Virus record (IMG/VR): IMGVR_UViG_2778261058_000002
Span: 1-5,365 of that record
From: a virus
Taxonomy: Duplodnaviria > Heunggongvirae > Uroviricota > Caudoviricetes
Strand: one strand, 5' to 3'
DNA length: 5,365 nucleotides
Shown here: positions 1 to 5,365 of the stretch, one piece after another
Position numbering within the stretch: the first letter of the stretch is position 1
Layout: each line of letters starts with the position of its first letter
Made by a program: the position numbers and the translations under genes
Notes under the pieces: model-generated
Told to the model about the DNA's origin: nothing
Seen by the model: only the letters and a program-made list of their open reading frames with translations
Databases searched by the model: none

Positions 1-332
1 ACGTCTGCGCCATGTTTTGACGCATTCATGGGGGCTGCGGTGGCATAAATGGTGATCCGGCGGGGAGGACCGCCACTTGCCACCTGGCAGACGGTAAAGC
101 TGCCTTTATTTACCAGTTTTCCGTTGAATCCCAGTCCCAGCGTTAATACTGCGCCTTTTGGTGGCAGCGCCATCGTCTCACTGAACAGGGTTATCATCAG
201 TTCATCGGAGCGCTTTGTGGCAGCACCATTATCGGTATAACGCAGTTCAGCCAGCCCCCGCTTTATGGCCTTCGTGATATCCTCACCCTCTGCTGTCAGG
301 CTGAAATCCGGCTGATACTCATTCAGTCCCAT
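1..332 (-). CDS. D: Tail protein D (gpD / late control D family, baseplate hub-like), partial: N-terminal ~110 aa only, gene continues past the window start
   Basis: Minus-strand frame is open from ATG at 332..330 to the window edge (checked codon by codon, no stop). In-frame TGA at 362..360 makes 332 the first possible ATG. AAGGAG Shine-Dalgarno-like motif about 11 nt upstream. Translation begins MGLNEYQPDFSLTAEGEDITKAIKRGLAELRYTDNGAATKRSDELMITLFSETMALPPKGAVLTLGLGFNGKLVNKGSFTV..., which fits the gpD-family N-terminal pattern as I recall it. Absent from the ORF track because it is truncated by the window edge. Start overlaps the stop of X by 10 nt. Confidence 0.75.
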   Translation of the reverse strand, partial: MGLNEYQPDFSLTAEGEDITKAIKRGLAELRYTDNGAATKRSDELMITLFSETMALPPKGAVLTLGLGFNGKLVNKGSFTVCQVASGGPPRRITIYATAAPMNASKHGAD

Positions 333-541
333 AGCTGAAACGTCTCCTTTTCCTCCGGTTCATACACCCAGTCCGGCAACACGATTTCCACTCCCGCCGG
401 ATAGACCGGACCAATATCAGCCAGTCCGGGATTGGCTTCCAGTACCGCCGCCAGTGACTGGTTAAGTCCGGCGCTGCCATAGTGTCTCTGACAGATATCA
501 TCCAGCATATCGCCGTCAGTGGTCCGCCAGTTTTTCGCCAT
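323..541 (-). CDS. X: Tail protein X (gpX-like, small LysM-like tail protein), 72 aa
   Basis: ORF 541..323 with ATG start. Translation MAKNWRTTDGDMLDDICQRHYG...LEANPGLADIGPVYPAGVEIVLPDW closely parallels the P2 gpX pattern (GDTLDAICVRYYG...LAANPGLAELG...LPD) from memory. Size matches gpX (about 67-72 aa). Lies between U and D as in phiCTX/R-pyocin-type clusters. Confidence 0.85.
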   Translation of the reverse strand: MAKNWRTTDGDMLDDICQRHYGSAGLNQSLAAVLEANPGLADIGPVYPAGVEIVLPDWVYEPEEKETFQLWD

Positions 542-1004
542 AGTATTTCAGCTCCAGTGTGAACGTTTTGTTCTTCGGCGCACCGCCGGGAAGAAATGAC
601 GTGGTGTTATCTGAATAGGCAGTTGCCACGAAATACCCCATCACATCACCTGTGCTCGAGACCAGAAGATGCGGGGCCGGATTGTCATCCACCATCTGAA
701 CCAGTGTATCAAGAGCGTCCATTCCCACACCGTCACGAAATCCTGCATGCGCCATACCTTCAAGGGTTATTGTTCTGGCCCCCTTGCCGGTATACTGCAG
801 CAGGTCGTTTTTTCCGATAAGCTGTTGTTCATCCCATCGCCATTCCATCGTGCGCTTCATGGCGTTATAAGCAGCAGTATCAATACTGAATTCAAACTCA
901 CCAAACGACAGCATGACGCGGGAGGCGACATCCGTTAATGATCCCACCGCGTCCCATGCTTCACGCTCAAGCCGGTTTACGCCCCAGCCCAGCAAATCCA
1001 CCAT
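516..1004 (-). CDS. U: Tail protein U (gpU-like), about 162 aa
   Basis: ORF in track is 516..1010, but the codon at 1010..1008 is GTG; the first ATG is at 1004..1002, preceded by a GGGGGTG Shine-Dalgarno-like run (1014..1008), so 1004 is the preferred start. Size and position (directly after tape measure) match P2 gpU. Its 3' end overlaps the X start by 26 nt. Confidence 0.8.
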   Translation of the reverse strand: MVDLLGWGVNRLEREAWDAVGSLTDVASRVMLSFGEFEFSIDTAAYNAMKRTMEWRWDEQQLIGKNDLLQYTGKGARTITLEGMAHAGFRDGVGMDALDTLVQMVDDNPAPHLLVSSTGDVMGYFVATAYSDNTTSFLPGGAPKNKTFTLELKYYGEKLADH

Positions 1005-1006
1005 AT

Positions 1007-2659
1007 TCACCCCCAGAATGCATCACCATCAGTCATGCGGGAACGCTGACCAAAATTAATATCTCCCAGATTTTTCGTTACCCTGTCTGCCAGTTGTCCG
1101 GCATCCTCGCCGGGCTTCTGAGTGATGTTAAATTCCGCCCGTATCTGATATGTGGGTTTTACTTCCACCTGGCTGACACTGCCGGGTGTATACTGAAGAG
1201 CTGAGAGGGGATCCGAATTACCCTGCCCCGGATCTGCTGCATGAAGTCCATCAATGTAGGTGCGGGATTTCTCTTTTATCGCCTTAAAATCAGGTTCTTC
1301 TTTCGGCCCCAGCAGAGGGTCGAGAAATGCATCAAACTTTTTATCGTCATGATTCCAGGGGAGATAACCGCGGGTGTCTTTATAAGCCTGTACAACCTGT
1401 TTCGTCAGATCCGGATTTTGCCTGAGCAGTTCATCAAACCATTCTCCCTGGCCGTTTTTCTGCGCCACCGCTCTCGCCAGCTCCGGCGACCCCATTTTTG
1501 CCAGATATTCCAGTACCTCTCGCCGGTCCTGACGCGGATCATCTGCCAGCCCCCACTCAATGGCTTTCTGCGTTATTCCGGCCAGAACTTTTCCAAATTT
1601 CCACATCCAGGCAGCCATGTCGATCAGCGCCGGCAGGGCATCATCACGAATAAATGCCCGGATTTTTTCCAGCCCACCATTCTTAAACCAGGCCGCAAGG
1701 TCATCCGTCACCTGTTGAATATGTGGGGCAAGTTCATTACCCAGCTGTCCGCTGATTTCATCAATGGAAGAACTCAGAACATTACGGAGATTTGACAGTG
1801 CCACATGTCCCTGAACTGCGCCATCAGCCCCTGCCTTTGTCACCAGGTTATAGCGTTTCTGCTCACTGATAAGCTCCCGATAAGTTTTCCCTGACAGACG
1901 CATCCAGGTCAGAATTTTATTGGCCTCACCACCGAACAACGCATCTGCCATTCCGGCAGCCACCTGTTCATTCTCTACCTGCAGTAAGCGATCAAATAAA
2001 AATTCGACCTGCTCCTGGTTACTTTTCCCTGCCATCACCCCGGCTTTCAGTCCCAGTTTGCCAAAGACCTCCTGAATGGCCCCTTTATCCGTGGCACCAT
2101 TATCATCGTCAAAAACCTTGTTCCGGTACTCCTCAAACAGATCACCGATGTTTTCACCGTTCAGCCCCATCAGTCGGGCCAGAGAATCCCATGACGCATA
2201 GGTTTCATAATCCACCCCATAACTGCGGGCTATCCCTGCCCGCTCTGCCGTCTCCGTATTCCGGTTAAGCACAGCGGCAGTGCCCGCTGCCAGCGTCAAC
2301 CCGGAACCAACCGAAAGCCCAAAACCGGTTTTAAGGACCGTCCCCGCCCGCCCTTTCCAGCGTTCCAGGCGTTCCGCACGAGCCAGTTTACGGTTAAATT
2401 TGTCCTGCTCTCCGGTGGCATCATGAATTTTTTTACCCAGCTTTTCATACTGCTTTCGCAGATCGGTAATATCCTGTCCTGCCAGTACAGCAGCCTGAAT
2501 TTTTCGTTTCAGTACGTCCTGCTGGCGTGTCAGACGAGCCACTTCCTGTGTTGCCCCTGATAATCCGTGCTTCAACCCATCAACCGATTTTTTCCACGAC
2601 GGATCTATCGTGCCTCCGATCCGGATATTCGCTTTAAGGTTATCGCCCACCGTTGCCAT
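1007..2659 (-). CDS. T: Tail tape measure protein (gpT-like), 550 aa
   Basis: Longest ORF, ATG at 2659..2657 preceded by GAGAGGAAG Shine-Dalgarno, TGA stop at 1009..1007. Located directly after the E/E' frameshift chaperone with its start inside the E' frame, the conserved arrangement for tape measure genes. Composition is charged/Ala/Gly-rich with predicted helical stretches, typical of tape measures. Confidence 0.85.
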   Translation of the reverse strand: MATVGDNLKANIRIGGTIDPSWKKSVDGLKHGLSGATQEVARLTRQQDVLKRKIQAAVLAGQDITDLRKQYEKLGKKIHDATGEQDKFNRKLARAERLERWKGRAGTVLKTGFGLSVGSGLTLAAGTAAVLNRNTETAERAGIARSYGVDYETYASWDSLARLMGLNGENIGDLFEEYRNKVFDDDNGATDKGAIQEVFGKLGLKAGVMAGKSNQEQVEFLFDRLLQVENEQVAAGMADALFGGEANKILTWMRLSGKTYRELISEQKRYNLVTKAGADGAVQGHVALSNLRNVLSSSIDEISGQLGNELAPHIQQVTDDLAAWFKNGGLEKIRAFIRDDALPALIDMAAWMWKFGKVLAGITQKAIEWGLADDPRQDRREVLEYLAKMGSPELARAVAQKNGQGEWFDELLRQNPDLTKQVVQAYKDTRGYLPWNHDDKKFDAFLDPLLGPKEEPDFKAIKEKSRTYIDGLHAADPGQGNSDPLSALQYTPGSVSQVEVKPTYQIRAEFNITQKPGEDAGQLADRVTKNLGDINFGQRSRMTDGDAFWG

Positions 2660-3079
2660 AACATCGCTTCCTCTCTTCCGACTCCGCCAGCATCATTGCC
2701 ACAAAATCCGTATACGGCAGCGCCATCACATCTCCGGGAGACCACCCGAACCAGGCACCGGCACGCCGTATCGCTGTCAGGATGCTTTCTTCTTCCGCCG
2801 GACCGGCGGCAGCAAAAAAACATTAAACTGACGCTCCAGGGCCAGGTAATCACACGCTTCCATGTTCATCATGTCTGCCGCGTCCATCCCACACAGACCG
2901 GCAATCATATCCAGATCAGCCTCTGCTTCCGGTTTGTTACTCCGGCGATGCAACAGACGATCGCGGACAGTGGGCGCACGCATAGTGACGTGCGTGATCG
3001 TCTGTCCTGATGCGGTGACATACGGCACGGATAACACAATTTCCACGCTGCTGGCAGGAACACTGTTTTTTTCCGACAT
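2640..3079 (-). CDS. Tail assembly chaperone E+E' fusion made by programmed -1 ribosomal frameshift (E frame 3079..2814, E' frame 2813..2640); about 146 aa
   Basis: Slippery heptamer T_TTT_TTG at 2819..2813 (minus strand) sits in the E frame as GTT TTT TTG. The -1 frame is open from the slip site to a TAA at 2642..2640 (translated by hand: AAAGPAEEESILTAIRRAGAWFGWSPGDVMALPYTDFVAMMLAESEERKRCYGNGGR) and overlaps the tape measure start at 2659, as for P2 E/E'. Confidence 0.7.
2777..3079 (-). CDS. E: Tail assembly chaperone E (gpE-like), about 100 aa, unshifted product
   Basis: ORF ends at TGA 2779..2777 with C-terminus ...ERQFNVFLLPPVRRKKKAS. Track start ATG 3085 sits directly against the AGGAG (3090..3086) with no spacer; the ATG at 3079..3077 has a 6-nt spacer and is the preferred start (MSEKNSVPASS...). 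Position between tube and tape measure and the internal slippery site identify it. Confidence 0.8.
   Translation of the reverse strand: MSEKNSVPASSVEIVLSVPYVTASGQTITHVTMRAPTVRDRLLHRRSNKPEAEADLDMIAGLCGMDAADMMNMEACDYLALERQFNVFLLPPVRRKKKAS
2813..2819 (-). promoter_or_regulatory. Programmed -1 ribosomal frameshift (recoding) site, slippery heptamer T_TTT_TTG
   Basis: Plus strand 2813..2820 reads caaaaaaa, i.e. TTTTTTTG on the minus strand, phased in the E frame as G-TT|TTT|TTG. This is the canonical X_XXY_YYZ slip motif reported for tail chaperone pairs (lambda G/GT, P2 E/E'). Confidence 0.75.
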
Positions 3080-3091
3080 AAGCATCTCCTT

Positions 3092-3119
3092 TAAAAAGAA
3101 AAGGCGGCCTGAGCCGCCT
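3092..3119 (-). terminator. Rho-independent terminator-like hairpin between tube and E (minus-strand transcript)
   Basis: Perfect 7-bp GC-rich inverted repeat AGGCGGC (3102..3108) / GCCGCCT (3113..3119) with 4-nt loop, followed on the minus strand by TTTTCTTTTTAAA (3101..3090). Lies in the 59-nt gap between the tube stop (3139) and the E Shine-Dalgarno. Confidence 0.7.
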
Positions 3120-3138
3120 GAATGACAGGATCCCCGGA

Positions 3139-3657
3139 TTAAACCCGGATGATTTTTTTCAGATCCGCCAGAACATTAACGCCGTTAATACGGCGCACAA
3201 ATTCCTCCGGAATAATGCAGATGGTTTCCACACCGTCAACAGCCTGACGGTAATAACTCAGTGACATTTCCACCGTCACCGAAGCCTCTGCCTGTGACGT
3301 TGCGGGACGCGCATCCGGCGTGATACTGGTGATCATCCCCTGCAGGGTTTCCACCTGTCCGCTGGTCGCATTCCCCACCTGGTAAGCCTGGCGGACAACA
3401 ATCTCCGGCGAATAAAGCCCGGCCTGTAATCCCAGCAGCGTAAGCATGGCAACATCATAACCATAAATCTTAAACGAACAGGTCAGCGCTTCCATGCCGT
3501 CATCCACTGCCACCGGTGCATCCATTGCGCCAGTTTTGATATCCACTGTCGTGATATTAATGGCTGGCGGCGTATATTCGTGCGCCCCCTGAAGACGGAT
3601 CCCACCAGGAAGAAATAACGCCCATGCGCGCAACAGTTTTTTTTCACCCGTAATCAT
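3139..3657 (-). CDS. FII: Tail tube protein (FII-like), 172 aa
   Basis: ORF 3657..3139, ATG start overlapping the sheath TGA (ATGA overlap). Same length as P2 FII (172 aa) and directly downstream of the sheath. C-terminal region ...ICIIPEEFVRRINGVNVLADLKKI resembles the tube-family C-terminus. Confidence 0.85.
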   Translation of the reverse strand: MITGEKKLLRAWALFLPGGIRLQGAHEYTPPAINITTVDIKTGAMDAPVAVDDGMEALTCSFKIYGYDVAMLTLLGLQAGLYSPEIVVRQAYQVGNATSGQVETLQGMITSITPDARPATSQAEASVTVEMSLSYYRQAVDGVETICIIPEEFVRRINGVNVLADLKKIIRV

Positions 3658-5129
3658 ACCGTCAGCTCCTCCAGCGCCAGTTTATTGTTAATCATCGCCC
3701 GCAGTGTCAGGCGCTCCAGTGGTGACTTCGGCCCAAAGTCATAATCGATATACAACTGCCCGGCGGCCAGGGTTTCTGCTGTGTTCAGTTCATCATTCAG
3801 CCAGGCACTGCCACCGTGGATCGCGCCCAGATTTTTAAGCTGACGCATATAGGCATTAATACTGCCAAGAATGTCGTCCGCCACATCACGATCCAGCGGA
3901 CGGTCAACATAAGGCAGCATGGCCTCCTGAATACTGTCCTCTATCACATCTGCAGTACGGCGTACCGGCTCAAAACGCCACTGACTGTGGGATGAACACA
4001 GACGGTTGCCCCAGTGTTTAAAACCGTCATGCCGAATAATGGTGGAGATGTTTTCCATGTTCAGCAGGTTTGCTGTGCAGTTCTGCTCCCCGAGAATAAA
4101 TGTGTCCACCTGCTCCAGACCGGTGATATTCATCACGTCCTGGTTTGATTTGGACCACCACCATCCCTTTTCGTAATCTATGCGGGCACGCAGCCCGGCA
4201 GCACGAGCCGAATACGGACGAAATACCGTTTGCCCGCTGTCATCCGTTACTGACACGCGCGGGCGCAGCAGCTCCACGCGCCCGCCAAAGGATGCGCGCC
4301 TCTGAACCACATCCTGCGGCGTTGCCATTGAGGGAGAGTCGATATAGGCCACGGCCCGCAGCTTCGCGGCATACGTTTCCAGCGCCTTTGCCACACCATC
4401 ATCCTCACTGTAACCCGTGGCAATGAGGATGCGCGGTTGATAGCCTGTCACGCCCTTACTTTCTGTCAGCGCCTCCATGGCCTGAATCACCGCCGCACGC
4501 TGTTCGGCCTCTTTCGCCTTTGTTTTGCTTTCCGCACGCACCACAATCACCAGCGCACCGGTCTGGTCAAAAATATCACGCAGGGCCGGATATAATGTCC
4601 CGGCTGAGCCCAGTTTCCCGGCCTGAGTAATGGCCCCTGCCACCACCACCGGTGTATTGACCGGGAACGCCTCATCCTCCCCGCCGGATAACGTCAGGCT
4701 GAACGGCGACACCACATTATTTTCAGCGCTTCCTGCATTCAGGGTACTGACAGCCGCCGTCACAGGCGAATCCCCCAGCGCATTCACCACTTCAGTCACA
4801 CGGTCCGCCGTGGCGTTAATCTGGCTGTGTTCGTCCGTCCCCAGCGTTATCGTCAGGGTTGTGCCTTTCAGCGATGCCGCTGTCTGCGCGTTTTGTTCTG
4901 TGGCAGCCACAGCAACAACCGAAATCTTATTACCGGCCCGACCTTCCTGTTTCGCCGTGAAATCCAGCGCCGTTCCCAGCAGCCAGGAGCCGGCTGTGCC
5001 GGAAGCGCACACACCACCAGAGGCGTCCGGCGCAGTCCCCACCAGGCCAATCACTGCCGTGGAGATGGTCTGCACGGCAACCGTGCCTGTCGTCAGTTCA
5101 ATGGTTTCAACACCATGTAATCCGGACAT
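3654..5129 (-). CDS. FI: Contractile tail sheath protein (FI-like), 491 aa, with an extra ~110-aa N-proximal insertion
   Basis: ORF 5129..3654, ATG preceded by GGGAG Shine-Dalgarno. Several blocks match the P2 FI sheath from memory: [32 protein letters not shown] vs [50 protein letters not shown] vs [34 protein letters not shown] vs [43 protein letters not shown] vs [27 protein letters not shown]. Confidence 0.9.
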   Translation of the reverse strand: [491 protein letters not shown]

Positions 5130-5141
5130 ACATTTCTCCCA

Positions 5142-5164
5142 TAAAAAAACCGCCCTCAGGCGGT
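5142..5164 (-). terminator. Rho-independent terminator-like hairpin between tail fiber assembly gene and sheath (minus-strand transcript)
   Basis: 6-bp GC stem ACCGCC (5149..5154) / GGCGGT (5159..5164) with 4-nt loop, followed on the minus strand by seven T (plus-strand A run 5143..5149). Only about 13 nt separate the T tract from the sheath ATG. Confidence 0.65.
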
Positions 5165-5183
5165 CAGATGATTAACTTCTTTT

Positions 5184-5365
5184 TCAGGTATTTTGTGGCT
5201 GCTCAGGCCAGCTAATATTGTTGTAAGTGGTCTTATCCGTAATAGCGCTGAAATCCATCGCCTGCAGCGATTTCGCGTAAATGCGGTACGCTTTCAGCTT
5301 CTCCCTGTCTTCGTCACTGATTAATCCCAGCAGCAGGTCTTTTTCCCATTCGCTGGTCATGATGC
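5184..5365 (-). CDS. tfa: Tail fiber assembly protein (Tfa / P2 gpG-like), partial: C-terminal ~60 aa only
   Basis: Minus-strand frame open from the window edge to TGA at 5186..5184. Translation ...MTSEWEKDLLLGLISDEDREKLKAYRIYAKSLQAMDFSAITDKTTYNNISWPEQPQNT* has the C-terminal W-P-E-x-P motif and preceding helical segment typical of enterobacterial tail fiber assembly proteins. Position just upstream of the sheath matches P2 order (H-G-FI). Confidence 0.7.
   Translation of the reverse strand, partial: IMTSEWEKDLLLGLISDEDREKLKAYRIYAKSLQAMDFSAITDKTTYNNISWPEQPQNT

What the first reader, a model, noticed from the sequence alone, without database searches (positions are those of the whole stretch)
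3086..3138. Intrinsic terminator between tube and chaperone E likely sets sheath/tube versus downstream gene stoichiometry
A perfect 7-bp GC stem with a 4-nt loop followed by a TTTTCTTTTT tract lies between the tube stop and the E Shine-Dalgarno. There is no space for a promoter afterwards, so E, E+E', tape measure, U, X and D must be transcribed by read-through. That gives high sheath/tube expression (hundreds of copies per tail) and attenuated expression of the low-copy downstream proteins. Together with the upstream hairpin, the sheath-tube pair is bracketed as a discrete expression unit.
Basis: partly seen in the sequence, partly recalled or inferred. Interest (0 to 1): 0.4.

Follow-up and report, generated by a model that had tools for sequence, protein, structure and literature searches.

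The report
Conserved terminator hairpin after tail-tube gene
A real, evolutionarily maintained terminator-type RNA hairpin follows the tail-tube gene of a lambda-like E. coli prophage with a contractile tail; it is an ordinary kind of operon punctuation, and it probably shapes mRNA ends and stability more than it stops transcription.

Summary
On the minus strand, 3119..3102 forms AGGCGGC-UCAG-GCCGCCU (6 G-C pairs plus 1 A-U, -13.7 kcal/mol). UUUCUUUUU and the AAGGAG Shine-Dalgarno of chaperone gene E follow directly. It is the only strong terminator in the window; none appeared in 300 shuffles. All 31 close relatives keep it, one with a compensatory G-C to A-U change. So do 17 of 22 distant relatives, with different stem sequences.

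Prophages 95-98% identical to the window are lambdoid: a Q antiterminator, then lysis, lambda-like head and P2-like tail genes on one strand, with several strong terminators in between. Q-loaded polymerase resists terminator hairpins. An equally conserved twin hairpin lies about 20 nt upstream of the sheath start, with no room for a promoter. Termination therefore cannot explain high sheath and tube expression.

My best reading is a read-through 3' boundary. It stops unmodified polymerase and shields sheath-tube mRNA from 3' exonucleases, as in malEF and papBA. This is inferred, not shown.

Predicted terminators at this junction already exist for Mannheimia P2-like phages and SPP1, so this is a new member of a known kind, of low to moderate interest.

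The parts
3102..3119 (-). Terminator-type hairpin AGGCGGC-UCAG-GCCGCCU (7 bp: 6 G-C plus 1 A-U; 4-nt loop)
   Evidence: dG -13.7 kcal/mol. Only strong hit in the window, with 0 of 300 shuffles giving any. Kept in all 31 close relatives, one with a compensatory G-C to A-U change. Replaced by other stems at the same site in distant relatives.
3093..3101 (-). U tract UUUCUUUUU directly abutting the stem
   Evidence: T-rich in all close relatives although its length varies. Present in 17 of 22 distant loci.
3086..3091 (-). Shine-Dalgarno AAGGAG of E, immediately after the U tract
   Evidence: A GGAG motif follows the T tract in nearly all relatives.
2777..3079 (-). Tail assembly chaperone gene E (PF10109), with its start at the second ATG (3079)
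   Evidence: PGAP start in the 98%-identical relative. Translation.
2813..2820 (-). Slippery T7G site for the -1 frameshift that gives E+E' (146 aa, ending just before the tape-measure start)
3139..3657 (-). Tail tube gene (PF04985). Its ATG overlaps the sheath TGA as ATGA, so it is translationally coupled to sheath.
3654..5129 (-). Tail sheath gene (PF04984 and PF17482, 491 aa)
5141..5165 (-). Twin terminator-type hairpin GACCGCC-UGAG-GGCGGUU plus UUUUUAU, between the tail-fibre-assembly stop (5186..5184) and the sheath Shine-Dalgarno and ATG (5129)
   Evidence: A hairpin at the equivalent position in 19 of 21 loci that reach it, with differing stems.
1..2659 (-). Distal genes that depend on read-through: tape measure (2659..1007), U (1010..516), X (541..323), D (332..<1)
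   Evidence: No promoter-like site on the minus strand downstream of the hairpin.

Best explanation
The element is a genuine intrinsic-terminator-type RNA hairpin, kept by selection at the 3' end of the tail-tube gene. It lies inside the long late transcription unit of a lambdoid prophage that has a P2-type contractile tail.

During lytic growth the late genes are most probably transcribed from a promoter next to Q by Q-loaded, terminator-resistant RNA polymerase. Most polymerases therefore pass the site and go on to E, E+E', tape measure, U, X and D.

On this reading the hairpin acts mainly as a 3' boundary of the sheath-tube mRNA segment, in two ways. First, it terminates polymerases that are not Q-loaded or have lost Q. 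Second, once the RNA is made, it blocks 3'-to-5' exonucleases after cleavage downstream. Sheath-tube mRNA then outlasts the distal tail-gene mRNA, as in the malE-malF and papBA models of differential operon decay. The conserved hairpin just upstream of sheath would be the matching 5' boundary.

Shown: the structure, its position, its conservation with stem covariation, the lack of a downstream promoter, and the lambdoid Q context of close relatives. Inferred: read-through by Q-loaded polymerase, the exonuclease-barrier role, and any effect on protein ratios.
For: - Canonical hairpin plus U tract: -13.7 kcal/mol, unique in the window, 0 of 300 shuffles.
- All 31 IMG/VR relatives (tube 91-100% identical) keep a hairpin plus T tract, while the spacer, T-tract length and Shine-Dalgarno region vary. 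L005 has a G-C to A-U double change.
- Of 22 species-level relatives (tube 32-59% identical), 17 have a terminator-like hairpin within 90 nt after the tube stop. The background is about one such hit per 2.6 kb. Stems are unrelated in sequence: AACGGCC/GGCCGTT, GCAGCC/GGCTGC, AGCGACC/GGTCGCT, AAGCGGCC/GGCCGCTT.
- At the same junction, P2 and Trabulsiella L035 have strong hairpins but no T tract. The hairpin is thus the more general feature, which fits an RNA-level role.
- Relatives 98.1% and 95.6% identical are lambdoid prophages with a PF06530 Q protein (E = 3e-43) and a promoter-like site right after Q. Three strong terminators precede the holin, and the lysis, head and tail genes are co-directional.
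- Other strong hairpins in that late array follow the major capsid and decoration genes. Lambda itself has one right after capsid gene E.
- The twin hairpin before sheath leaves no room for a promoter, and there is no P2 late-promoter dyad.
- L028 carries two tandem hairpins before the essential gene E.
- Literature: Q forms a nozzle that precludes terminator hairpin formation (PMC9388147). 3' and 5' hairpins set differential decay in E. coli operons (PMC5927463).
Against: - There are no transcript, 3'-end or half-life data for this element or any relative.
- The Q context comes from near-identical relatives, not from the 5.4-kb window itself, and the candidate late promoter is only a consensus match.
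- The T tract is conserved in the enterobacterial clade. Termination explains that directly, whereas an exonuclease barrier would not need it. It could alternatively serve as a U-rich leader for E translation.
- Similar hairpins occur in true P2-like phages that are not known to use Q (Mannheimia). There a leaky-terminator role is the simpler reading.
- Lambda balances late protein ratios largely at translation initiation (recalled from Sampson et al. 1988, not retrieved here). Any mRNA-level effect may therefore be small.
Confidence: 0.5

Rival explanations
1. The hairpin is a leaky transcriptional attenuator: a fixed fraction of polymerases terminate after tube, and that step in transcription is the main cause of high sheath and tube versus low E, T, U, X and D.
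For: - It has every sequence feature of an intrinsic terminator, and the U tract is conserved.
- No promoter lies downstream.
- Leaky terminators that balance expression are documented in phages: T7, and LUZ7 where most terminators are under 50% efficient (PMC9163698).
- Terminators are predicted at the same junction in Mannheimia P2-like phages and SPP1 (PMC6316719).
- Q antitermination need not be 100% efficient.
Against: - The context is a Q-type late operon with at least 7 such hairpins. Q-loaded polymerase suppresses hairpin formation (PMC9388147).
- An equally strong terminator sits directly before sheath with no promoter after it. A descending staircase of termination cannot give high sheath and tube after the low-copy baseplate and fibre genes.
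- The element looks strong rather than leaky, and it is duplicated in L028 ahead of essential genes.
- P2 and L035 keep a hairpin without a U tract.
Confidence: 0.25
2. A fail-safe insulator. The hairpin exists to stop polymerases that are not Q-loaded, such as those from spurious or read-in transcription in the lysogen or early after induction. Tail genes would then be expressed only from the antiterminated late transcript, and the hairpin would have no role in stoichiometry.
For: - Strong terminators are spread along the late region of the relatives, three of them before the holin.
- Late promoters of lambdoid prophages are constitutively active but terminated in lysogens (PMC7547250).
- Terminator insulators are known in mobile elements, for example the Tn916 paper listed.
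Against: - This does not explain why the hairpins sit specifically after the capsid, decoration and tube genes and before sheath, nor why that placement is conserved across genera.
- Premature tail-protein synthesis is not obviously harmful.
- Hairpins without a U tract at the same site (P2, L035) cannot insulate.
Confidence: 0.1
3. A translation-initiation element for E, with the twin serving sheath. The hairpin stops the ribosome-binding site from pairing with upstream coding RNA, and the U-rich tract acts as an S1-binding leader that boosts independent initiation.
For: - The U tract runs straight into the Shine-Dalgarno in almost every relative, while the distance from tube stop to hairpin varies from 4 to 33 nt.
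- The same hairpin, U tract and GGAG layout precedes sheath, which needs very high translation.
- U-rich leaders as S1-dependent enhancers are established knowledge (from memory).
Against: - A U tract that abuts a G-C-rich stem is the specific signature of termination, and a compact phage intergenic region would produce the same adjacency anyway.
- P2, ECOO78 and Persinger have the hairpin well separated from the E Shine-Dalgarno.
Confidence: 0.08
4. No present function. The hairpin would be a remnant of an operon end or a module junction, carried along by mosaic recombination.
For: - The tail-fibre-assembly gene just upstream of sheath is a mosaic piece, 99% identical to phiP27 over 119 nt.
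- Sequences downstream of the hairpin diverge sharply in some relatives (L028, L032, L033).
Against: - The stem is kept while its flanks drift, and there is a compensatory change.
- Different stems occupy the same site across genera. That indicates maintenance or repeated gain, not decay.
Confidence: 0.05

Closest known systems
Predicted rho-independent terminators at the tube-to-chaperone junction in other phages: Mannheimia P2-like phage vB_MhM_587AP1 (GenBank annotation) and Bacillus phage SPP1 (PMC6316719, Table 2)
   Same: In 587AP1 a terminator is annotated between FII (tube) and E, and another just upstream of FI (sheath). In SPP1 predicted terminators follow the capsid gene 13 and the tail-tube gene 17.1*, ahead of chaperone 17.5 (PMC6316719). 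The position and structure type match the window.
   Different: These are computational annotations too, with no measured function. 587AP1 has a late promoter annotated overlapping the pre-sheath terminator; the window has no such site. Those phages are not known to use Q-type antitermination.
Phage lambda late operon: Q antitermination, and the stem-loop right after capsid gene E
   Same: One long Q-dependent late transcript runs across internal hairpins. Lambda has ATGGCCC-UUCG-GGGCCAU directly after the major capsid gene, just as the relatives of this window do after their capsid gene.
   Different: Lambda has no hairpin between major tail gene V and chaperone G; the gap is only 15 nt. Its post-E hairpin has a poor U tract. 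Lambda has a non-contractile tail.
Phage P2 F operon (FI, FII, E, E+E', T, U, D)
   Same: Gene order and the T-rich -1 frameshift in E are the same. A 56-nt FII-E spacer holds a 9-bp hairpin at the same place.
   Different: The P2 hairpin has no U tract and is not annotated as a terminator. P2 drives the operon from an Ogr-dependent promoter upstream of FI, and that site is absent here. Tube identity to the P2 group is low, with the best sequenced phage match only 48% (Chris1). The sheath is 491 aa here against 396 in P2. X lies between U and D here.
Differential operon decay with protective hairpins (malE-malF 3' hairpin, papBA 5' and 3' hairpins; PMC5927463)
   Same: A stable intercistronic hairpin lies at the 3' edge of the gene or genes needed in highest amount. 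A second hairpin lies at the 5' edge, as in papA, which also encodes a major structural subunit.
   Different: No decay or cleavage data exist here. Most protective structures in E. coli operons lie inside coding regions and lack U tracts.
T7 T-phi and other leaky phage terminators (PMC9163698)
   Same: A terminator sits after a major structural gene, with essential genes downstream that depend on read-through.
   Different: Those act on polymerases that are not antiterminated. Here the polymerase is probably Q-loaded.

Membership tests
Intrinsic (rho-independent) terminator | G-C-rich stem of about 5-14 bp with a short loop | tested here: met
   7 bp (6 G-C), 4-nt loop, -13.7 kcal/mol.
Intrinsic (rho-independent) terminator | U-rich tract directly 3' of the stem, on the transcribed strand, downstream of a stop codon | tested here: met
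   UUUCUUUUU abuts the stem, which begins 19 nt after the tube TAA, on the coding strand only. The opposite strand has no T tract.
Intrinsic (rho-independent) terminator | Generates RNA 3' ends and releases polymerase | not testable with these tools
   No transcript data are available. Term-seq or in vitro transcription is needed.
Q-antiterminated lambdoid late operon | Q-family antiterminator gene upstream of co-directional lysis, head and tail genes | tested here: met
   Met in prophages 98.1% and 95.6% identical to the window: PF06530 at E = 3e-43. The window itself is too short to show it.
Q-antiterminated lambdoid late operon | Late promoter with a Q-binding element, followed by terminators that block expression without Q | tested here: inconclusive
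   A promoter-like TTGATT-16-TAAAAT lies right after the Q stop, and three strong terminators precede the holin. No Q-binding element or pause site was identified.
P2-type F operon with Ogr-dependent late promoter | TGT-N12-ACA activator site about 55 nt upstream of the start, ahead of the sheath gene | tested here: not met
   Only three intragenic matches, at chance level. None lies upstream of sheath or E. P2 has this site annotated.
Protective 3' hairpin of differential operon decay | Stable conserved structure at the boundary between a stable upstream segment and an unstable downstream segment | tested here: inconclusive
   A stable, conserved structure at the boundary is shown. Segment half-lives are unknown.
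Known RNA families (Rfam 15) | Match to a curated covariance model | tested here: not met
   The only match is a chance-level hit inside the tube gene (E = 0.99).

The most novel reading that the evidence does not exclude
The two conserved hairpins flanking sheath-tube form a post-transcriptional cassette. From a Q-antiterminated polycistron, RNase E processing plus the 5' and 3' hairpins would release a long-lived bicistronic sheath-tube mRNA, in the manner of papBA. The same device after the capsid and decoration genes would set structural-protein ratios in lambdoid late operons, where terminators cannot terminate. That would give internal terminators in antiterminated phage operons a general function.
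Probability: 0.3. Interest if true: 0.45.

Novelty: new member of a known kind. Interest (0 to 1): 0.25.

Why it matters
If confirmed, it would show how a phage that transcribes all its late genes with terminator-resistant polymerase still gets unequal mRNA doses for high-copy and low-copy virion proteins. It would also explain why terminator-like hairpins persist inside antiterminated operons. In practice, the element marks a natural boundary to respect when engineering tailocins or phage tails from this module. As it stands it is a well-supported but ordinary piece of operon punctuation.

Tried and rejected
- A nucleotide search of deposited phages found only the tail-fibre-assembly end of the window. 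No sequenced phage is close; the best tube match is 48% (Chris1).
- The first genome-contig scan, with the single tube protein, found nothing. An alignment-based scan then worked.
- MAFFT put the two stem groups out of register. Pairs were tallied in Python instead. The 100% pairing there is partly by construction, because each segment was chosen as the best local hairpin. The unbiased evidence is how often a hairpin occurs at this site compared with background.
- Rfam gave no family.
- The P2 late-promoter dyad was not found at the sheath or E, so a P2-type F operon was rejected.
- Lambda V-G was checked as a possible parallel. It has no hairpin, and my recalled coordinates were wrong.
- Liu et al. 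2013 (lambda ribosome profiling) and Christie et al. 2002 (P2 FETUD) are not held. Temple et al. 1991 could not be consulted. Literature searches for transcript data on this junction found none.
- A bidirectional terminator was rejected, because there is no T tract on the plus strand.

Full report
**What is in the window**

All genes run on the minus strand:
- the 3' end of a tail-fibre-assembly gene (stop at 5186..5184)
- sheath (5129..3654, PF04984 and PF17482)
- tube (3657..3139, PF04985; its ATG overlaps the sheath TGA as ATGA)
- chaperone E (3079..2777, PF10109)
- a T7G slippery site at 2820..2813 that gives a 146-aa E+E' product by -1 frameshift
- a 550-aa tape measure (2659..1007)
- U (PF06995), X (PF05489) and the start of D

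**The observation**

The tube stop (3141..3139) and the E start are 59 nt apart. That gap holds the hairpin AGGCGGC-TCAG-GCCGCCT (3119..3102), then TTTCTTTTT (3101..3093), then AAGGAG (3091..3086).

The stem has six G-C pairs plus one A-U pair. Its energy is -13.7 kcal/mol, and a d'Aubenton-Carafa-type score, using a formula recalled from memory, is about +30. The hairpin forms in the MFE and centroid folds of a 161-nt context. The 53-nt interval as a whole is not exceptional (z = -1.46), because most of it is unstructured.

The generic scan ranks this hairpin first among 9 terminator-like hits, against 4.4 expected by chance. A stricter scan finds it as the only hit on either strand, and none of 300 dinucleotide shuffles produced one. 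The opposite strand has no T tract, so the element works in one direction only. Rfam has no family here.

**Conservation**

Close relatives. All 31 IMG/VR loci with tube proteins 91-100% identical keep a hairpin and T tract at this site.
- In 30 of them the stem is the same or nearly so, while the spacer after the stop codon, the T-tract length and the Shine-Dalgarno region carry substitutions and indels.
- L005 has a double, pair-preserving change (AGGCAGC/GCTGCCT).
- L021 and L031 differ only in the loop.
- L034 has a G-U pair.
- L028 has a different stem, plus a second hairpin in tandem, with no gene inserted between them.

Distant relatives. An alignment-based scan of one genome per species returned 23 loci with tube identity of 32-59%. 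They come from Trabulsiella, Dryocola, Enterobacter, Scandinavium, Erwinia, Citrobacter, Providencia, Izhakiella, Pantoea, Tatumella, Rosenbergiella, Serratia, Rouxiella and Pseudomonas. One of them, L054, reads as a disrupted tube gene and was left out of the tally.
- Of the other 22, 17 have a terminator-like hairpin within 90 nt after the tube stop (18 of 23 counting the window). The background rate on the coding strand is about one such hit per 2.6 kb.
- The stems are unrelated in sequence: AACGGCC/GGCCGTT, GCAGCC/GGCTGC, AGCGACC/GGTCGCT, AAGCGGCC/GGCCGCTT, AGGGCACC/GGTGCCCT. Five of seven pair positions therefore show two-sided changes.
- The pairing tallies are partly circular, because each segment was chosen as the best local hairpin. 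The unbiased evidence is how often a hairpin occurs at this site.
- Exceptions: Trabulsiella L035 has an 11-bp hairpin with no T tract. Tatumella L049 keeps only a remnant. L053 and the two Pseudomonas loci have none.

Sequenced phages. Chris1, yong2, ECOO78, VHML, Persinger and Mannheimia 587AP1 have a hairpin after tube. P2 has a 9-bp hairpin without a T tract. 569R10 has none.

The hairpin at this junction is therefore a selected, widespread feature. The T tract is selected within the enterobacterial clade.

**The twin hairpin**

The hairpin upstream of sheath (5165..5148, followed by TTTTTAT) is conserved in the same way. Of the 21 loci that extend that far upstream, 19 have a terminator-like hairpin about 20-30 nt before the sheath ATG; L051 and L057 do not. 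It starts at the stop codon of whatever gene lies upstream, and its stems covary: GACCTGCC, AACCCGCC, AGCCCCCGC, AACCAGC.

Only the Shine-Dalgarno lies between its T tract and the sheath ATG. No P2-type TGT-N12-ACA site is present there.

**Genomic context**

No deposited phage matches the window at the nucleotide level, except for the tail-fibre-assembly end. In complete E. coli genomes, 74 carry at least 80% of the window, and the best match is 98.1% identical.

In strain A36 the element is a prophage next to ssrA with this layout, from the repressor region onward all on one strand:
- integrase, XRE-family repressor region and replication genes
- a Q antiterminator (PF06530, E = 3e-43)
- tRNAs, holins and endolysin
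- lambda-like terminase, portal, S49 protease, decoration protein, major capsid protein and FI
- V, W, J, I, a fibre gene and the fibre-assembly gene, then the window genes

A promoter-like site follows the Q stop, and three strong terminators precede the holin. A second relative, 95.6% identical, has the same layout. Citrobacter phage Chris1, the closest sequenced phage by tube protein, is also lambdoid.

Within the A36 late array, the strongest coding-strand hairpins lie after the capsid gene, between the decoration and capsid genes, before sheath and after tube. Lambda itself has ATGGCCC-TTCG-GGGCCAT directly after capsid gene E.

**Mechanism**

Q proteins form a nozzle on the RNA exit channel that prevents terminator hairpins from forming (PMC9388147). 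Lambdoid late genes depend on this bypass (PMC7547250).

The late array has at least seven such hairpins, a strong terminator directly before sheath, and two in tandem before E in L028. The simplest reading is that polymerases transcribing the late genes ignore these sites. Terminators can only lower downstream transcription, so a terminator before sheath cannot contribute to high sheath and tube output.

What a read-through hairpin can still do is known from E. coli operons. A 3' hairpin blocks PNPase and RNase II after cleavage downstream (malE-malF). A 5' hairpin together with a 3' terminator stabilises the mRNA for the major pilus subunit (papBA) (PMC5927463).

I therefore favour a boundary and stabiliser role with some residual termination, at confidence about 0.5. 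The pure leaky-attenuator model stands at about 0.25. It remains viable because the U tract is conserved, because Q bypass may be incomplete, and because leaky terminators do tune expression in T7 and LUZ7 (PMC9163698).

Lesser rivals are a fail-safe against unmodified polymerase, a translation leader for E, and a neutral remnant.

Translational coupling clearly contributes to the protein ratios as well. Tube overlaps sheath by ATGA, and the tape-measure/U, U/X and X/D junctions also overlap.

**Comparison with what is known**

The Mannheimia phage 587AP1 record already annotates a rho-independent terminator between FII and E, and another upstream of FI that overlaps a late promoter. These came from prediction software (PMC4553209).

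SPP1 has predicted terminators right after its capsid gene and right after its tail-tube gene, ahead of the chaperone gene (PMC6316719, Table 2).

The kind of element and its position are thus already on record, though without functional tests. New here are this particular prophage family, the breadth of comparative support, and the point that the context is an antiterminated operon.

**Verdict**

The feature is real and under selection. It is a new member of a known kind, with interest of about 0.25.

Noticed in passing
window 5141-5165 (-); equivalent sites in L035-L057: A second terminator-type hairpin lies about 20 nt upstream of the sheath ATG. It is conserved with covarying stems in 19 of the 21 loci that extend that far upstream (not L051 or L057), and it starts right at the stop codon of whatever gene lies upstream. 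There is no room for a promoter after it.
   Followed up: partly
L059 8936-10081 (NZ_AP019856.1 4740935-4742080): A prophage 95.6% identical to the window carries heat-labile enterotoxin type II A and B subunit genes between the holin and endolysin genes. The toxin genes therefore sit inside the Q-dependent late transcript.
   Followed up: no
window 5222-5365: The 3' end of the tail-fibre-assembly gene is 99% identical to phage phiP27 over 119 nt and 90% identical to an Actinobacillus phage. The rest of the window matches no deposited phage, which suggests a mosaic fibre cassette ending at the pre-sheath hairpin.
   Followed up: no
L001 31487-31505 and 32562-32586 (-); L060 1664-1681 (lambda 7163-7180): Strong hairpins sit directly after the major capsid gene and between the decoration and capsid genes in the related prophage. 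Lambda has a UUCG-loop hairpin directly after capsid gene E, inside its antiterminated late operon.
   Followed up: partly
L028 3538-3600: One close relative has two tandem terminator-like hairpins between tube and E (GGCGGC-CTGT-GCCGC plus a T run, then AAACGTCCGG-TAA-CGGACGTTT), with no gene inserted between them.
   Followed up: yes
window 1007-2659 and 3654-5129 (-): The tape measure is only 550 aa and matches no Pfam family. The sheath is 491 aa against 396 in P2. X lies between U and D. This tail module is a distant branch of the P2 type, found with lambda-like heads.
   Followed up: no
window 3128-3147 (-): A small 4-5 bp hairpin (CCGG-GTTTAAT-CCGG) spans the tube stop codon. Some relatives have a perfect CCGGG/CCCGG version. 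Its significance is unknown.
   Followed up: no
L003 2381-2401 (P2 19380-19400): The P2 FII-E spacer holds a 9-bp hairpin (CCGGTCAGC-CTG-GCTGGCCGG) with no T tract. It is not annotated in the P2 record.
   Followed up: partly
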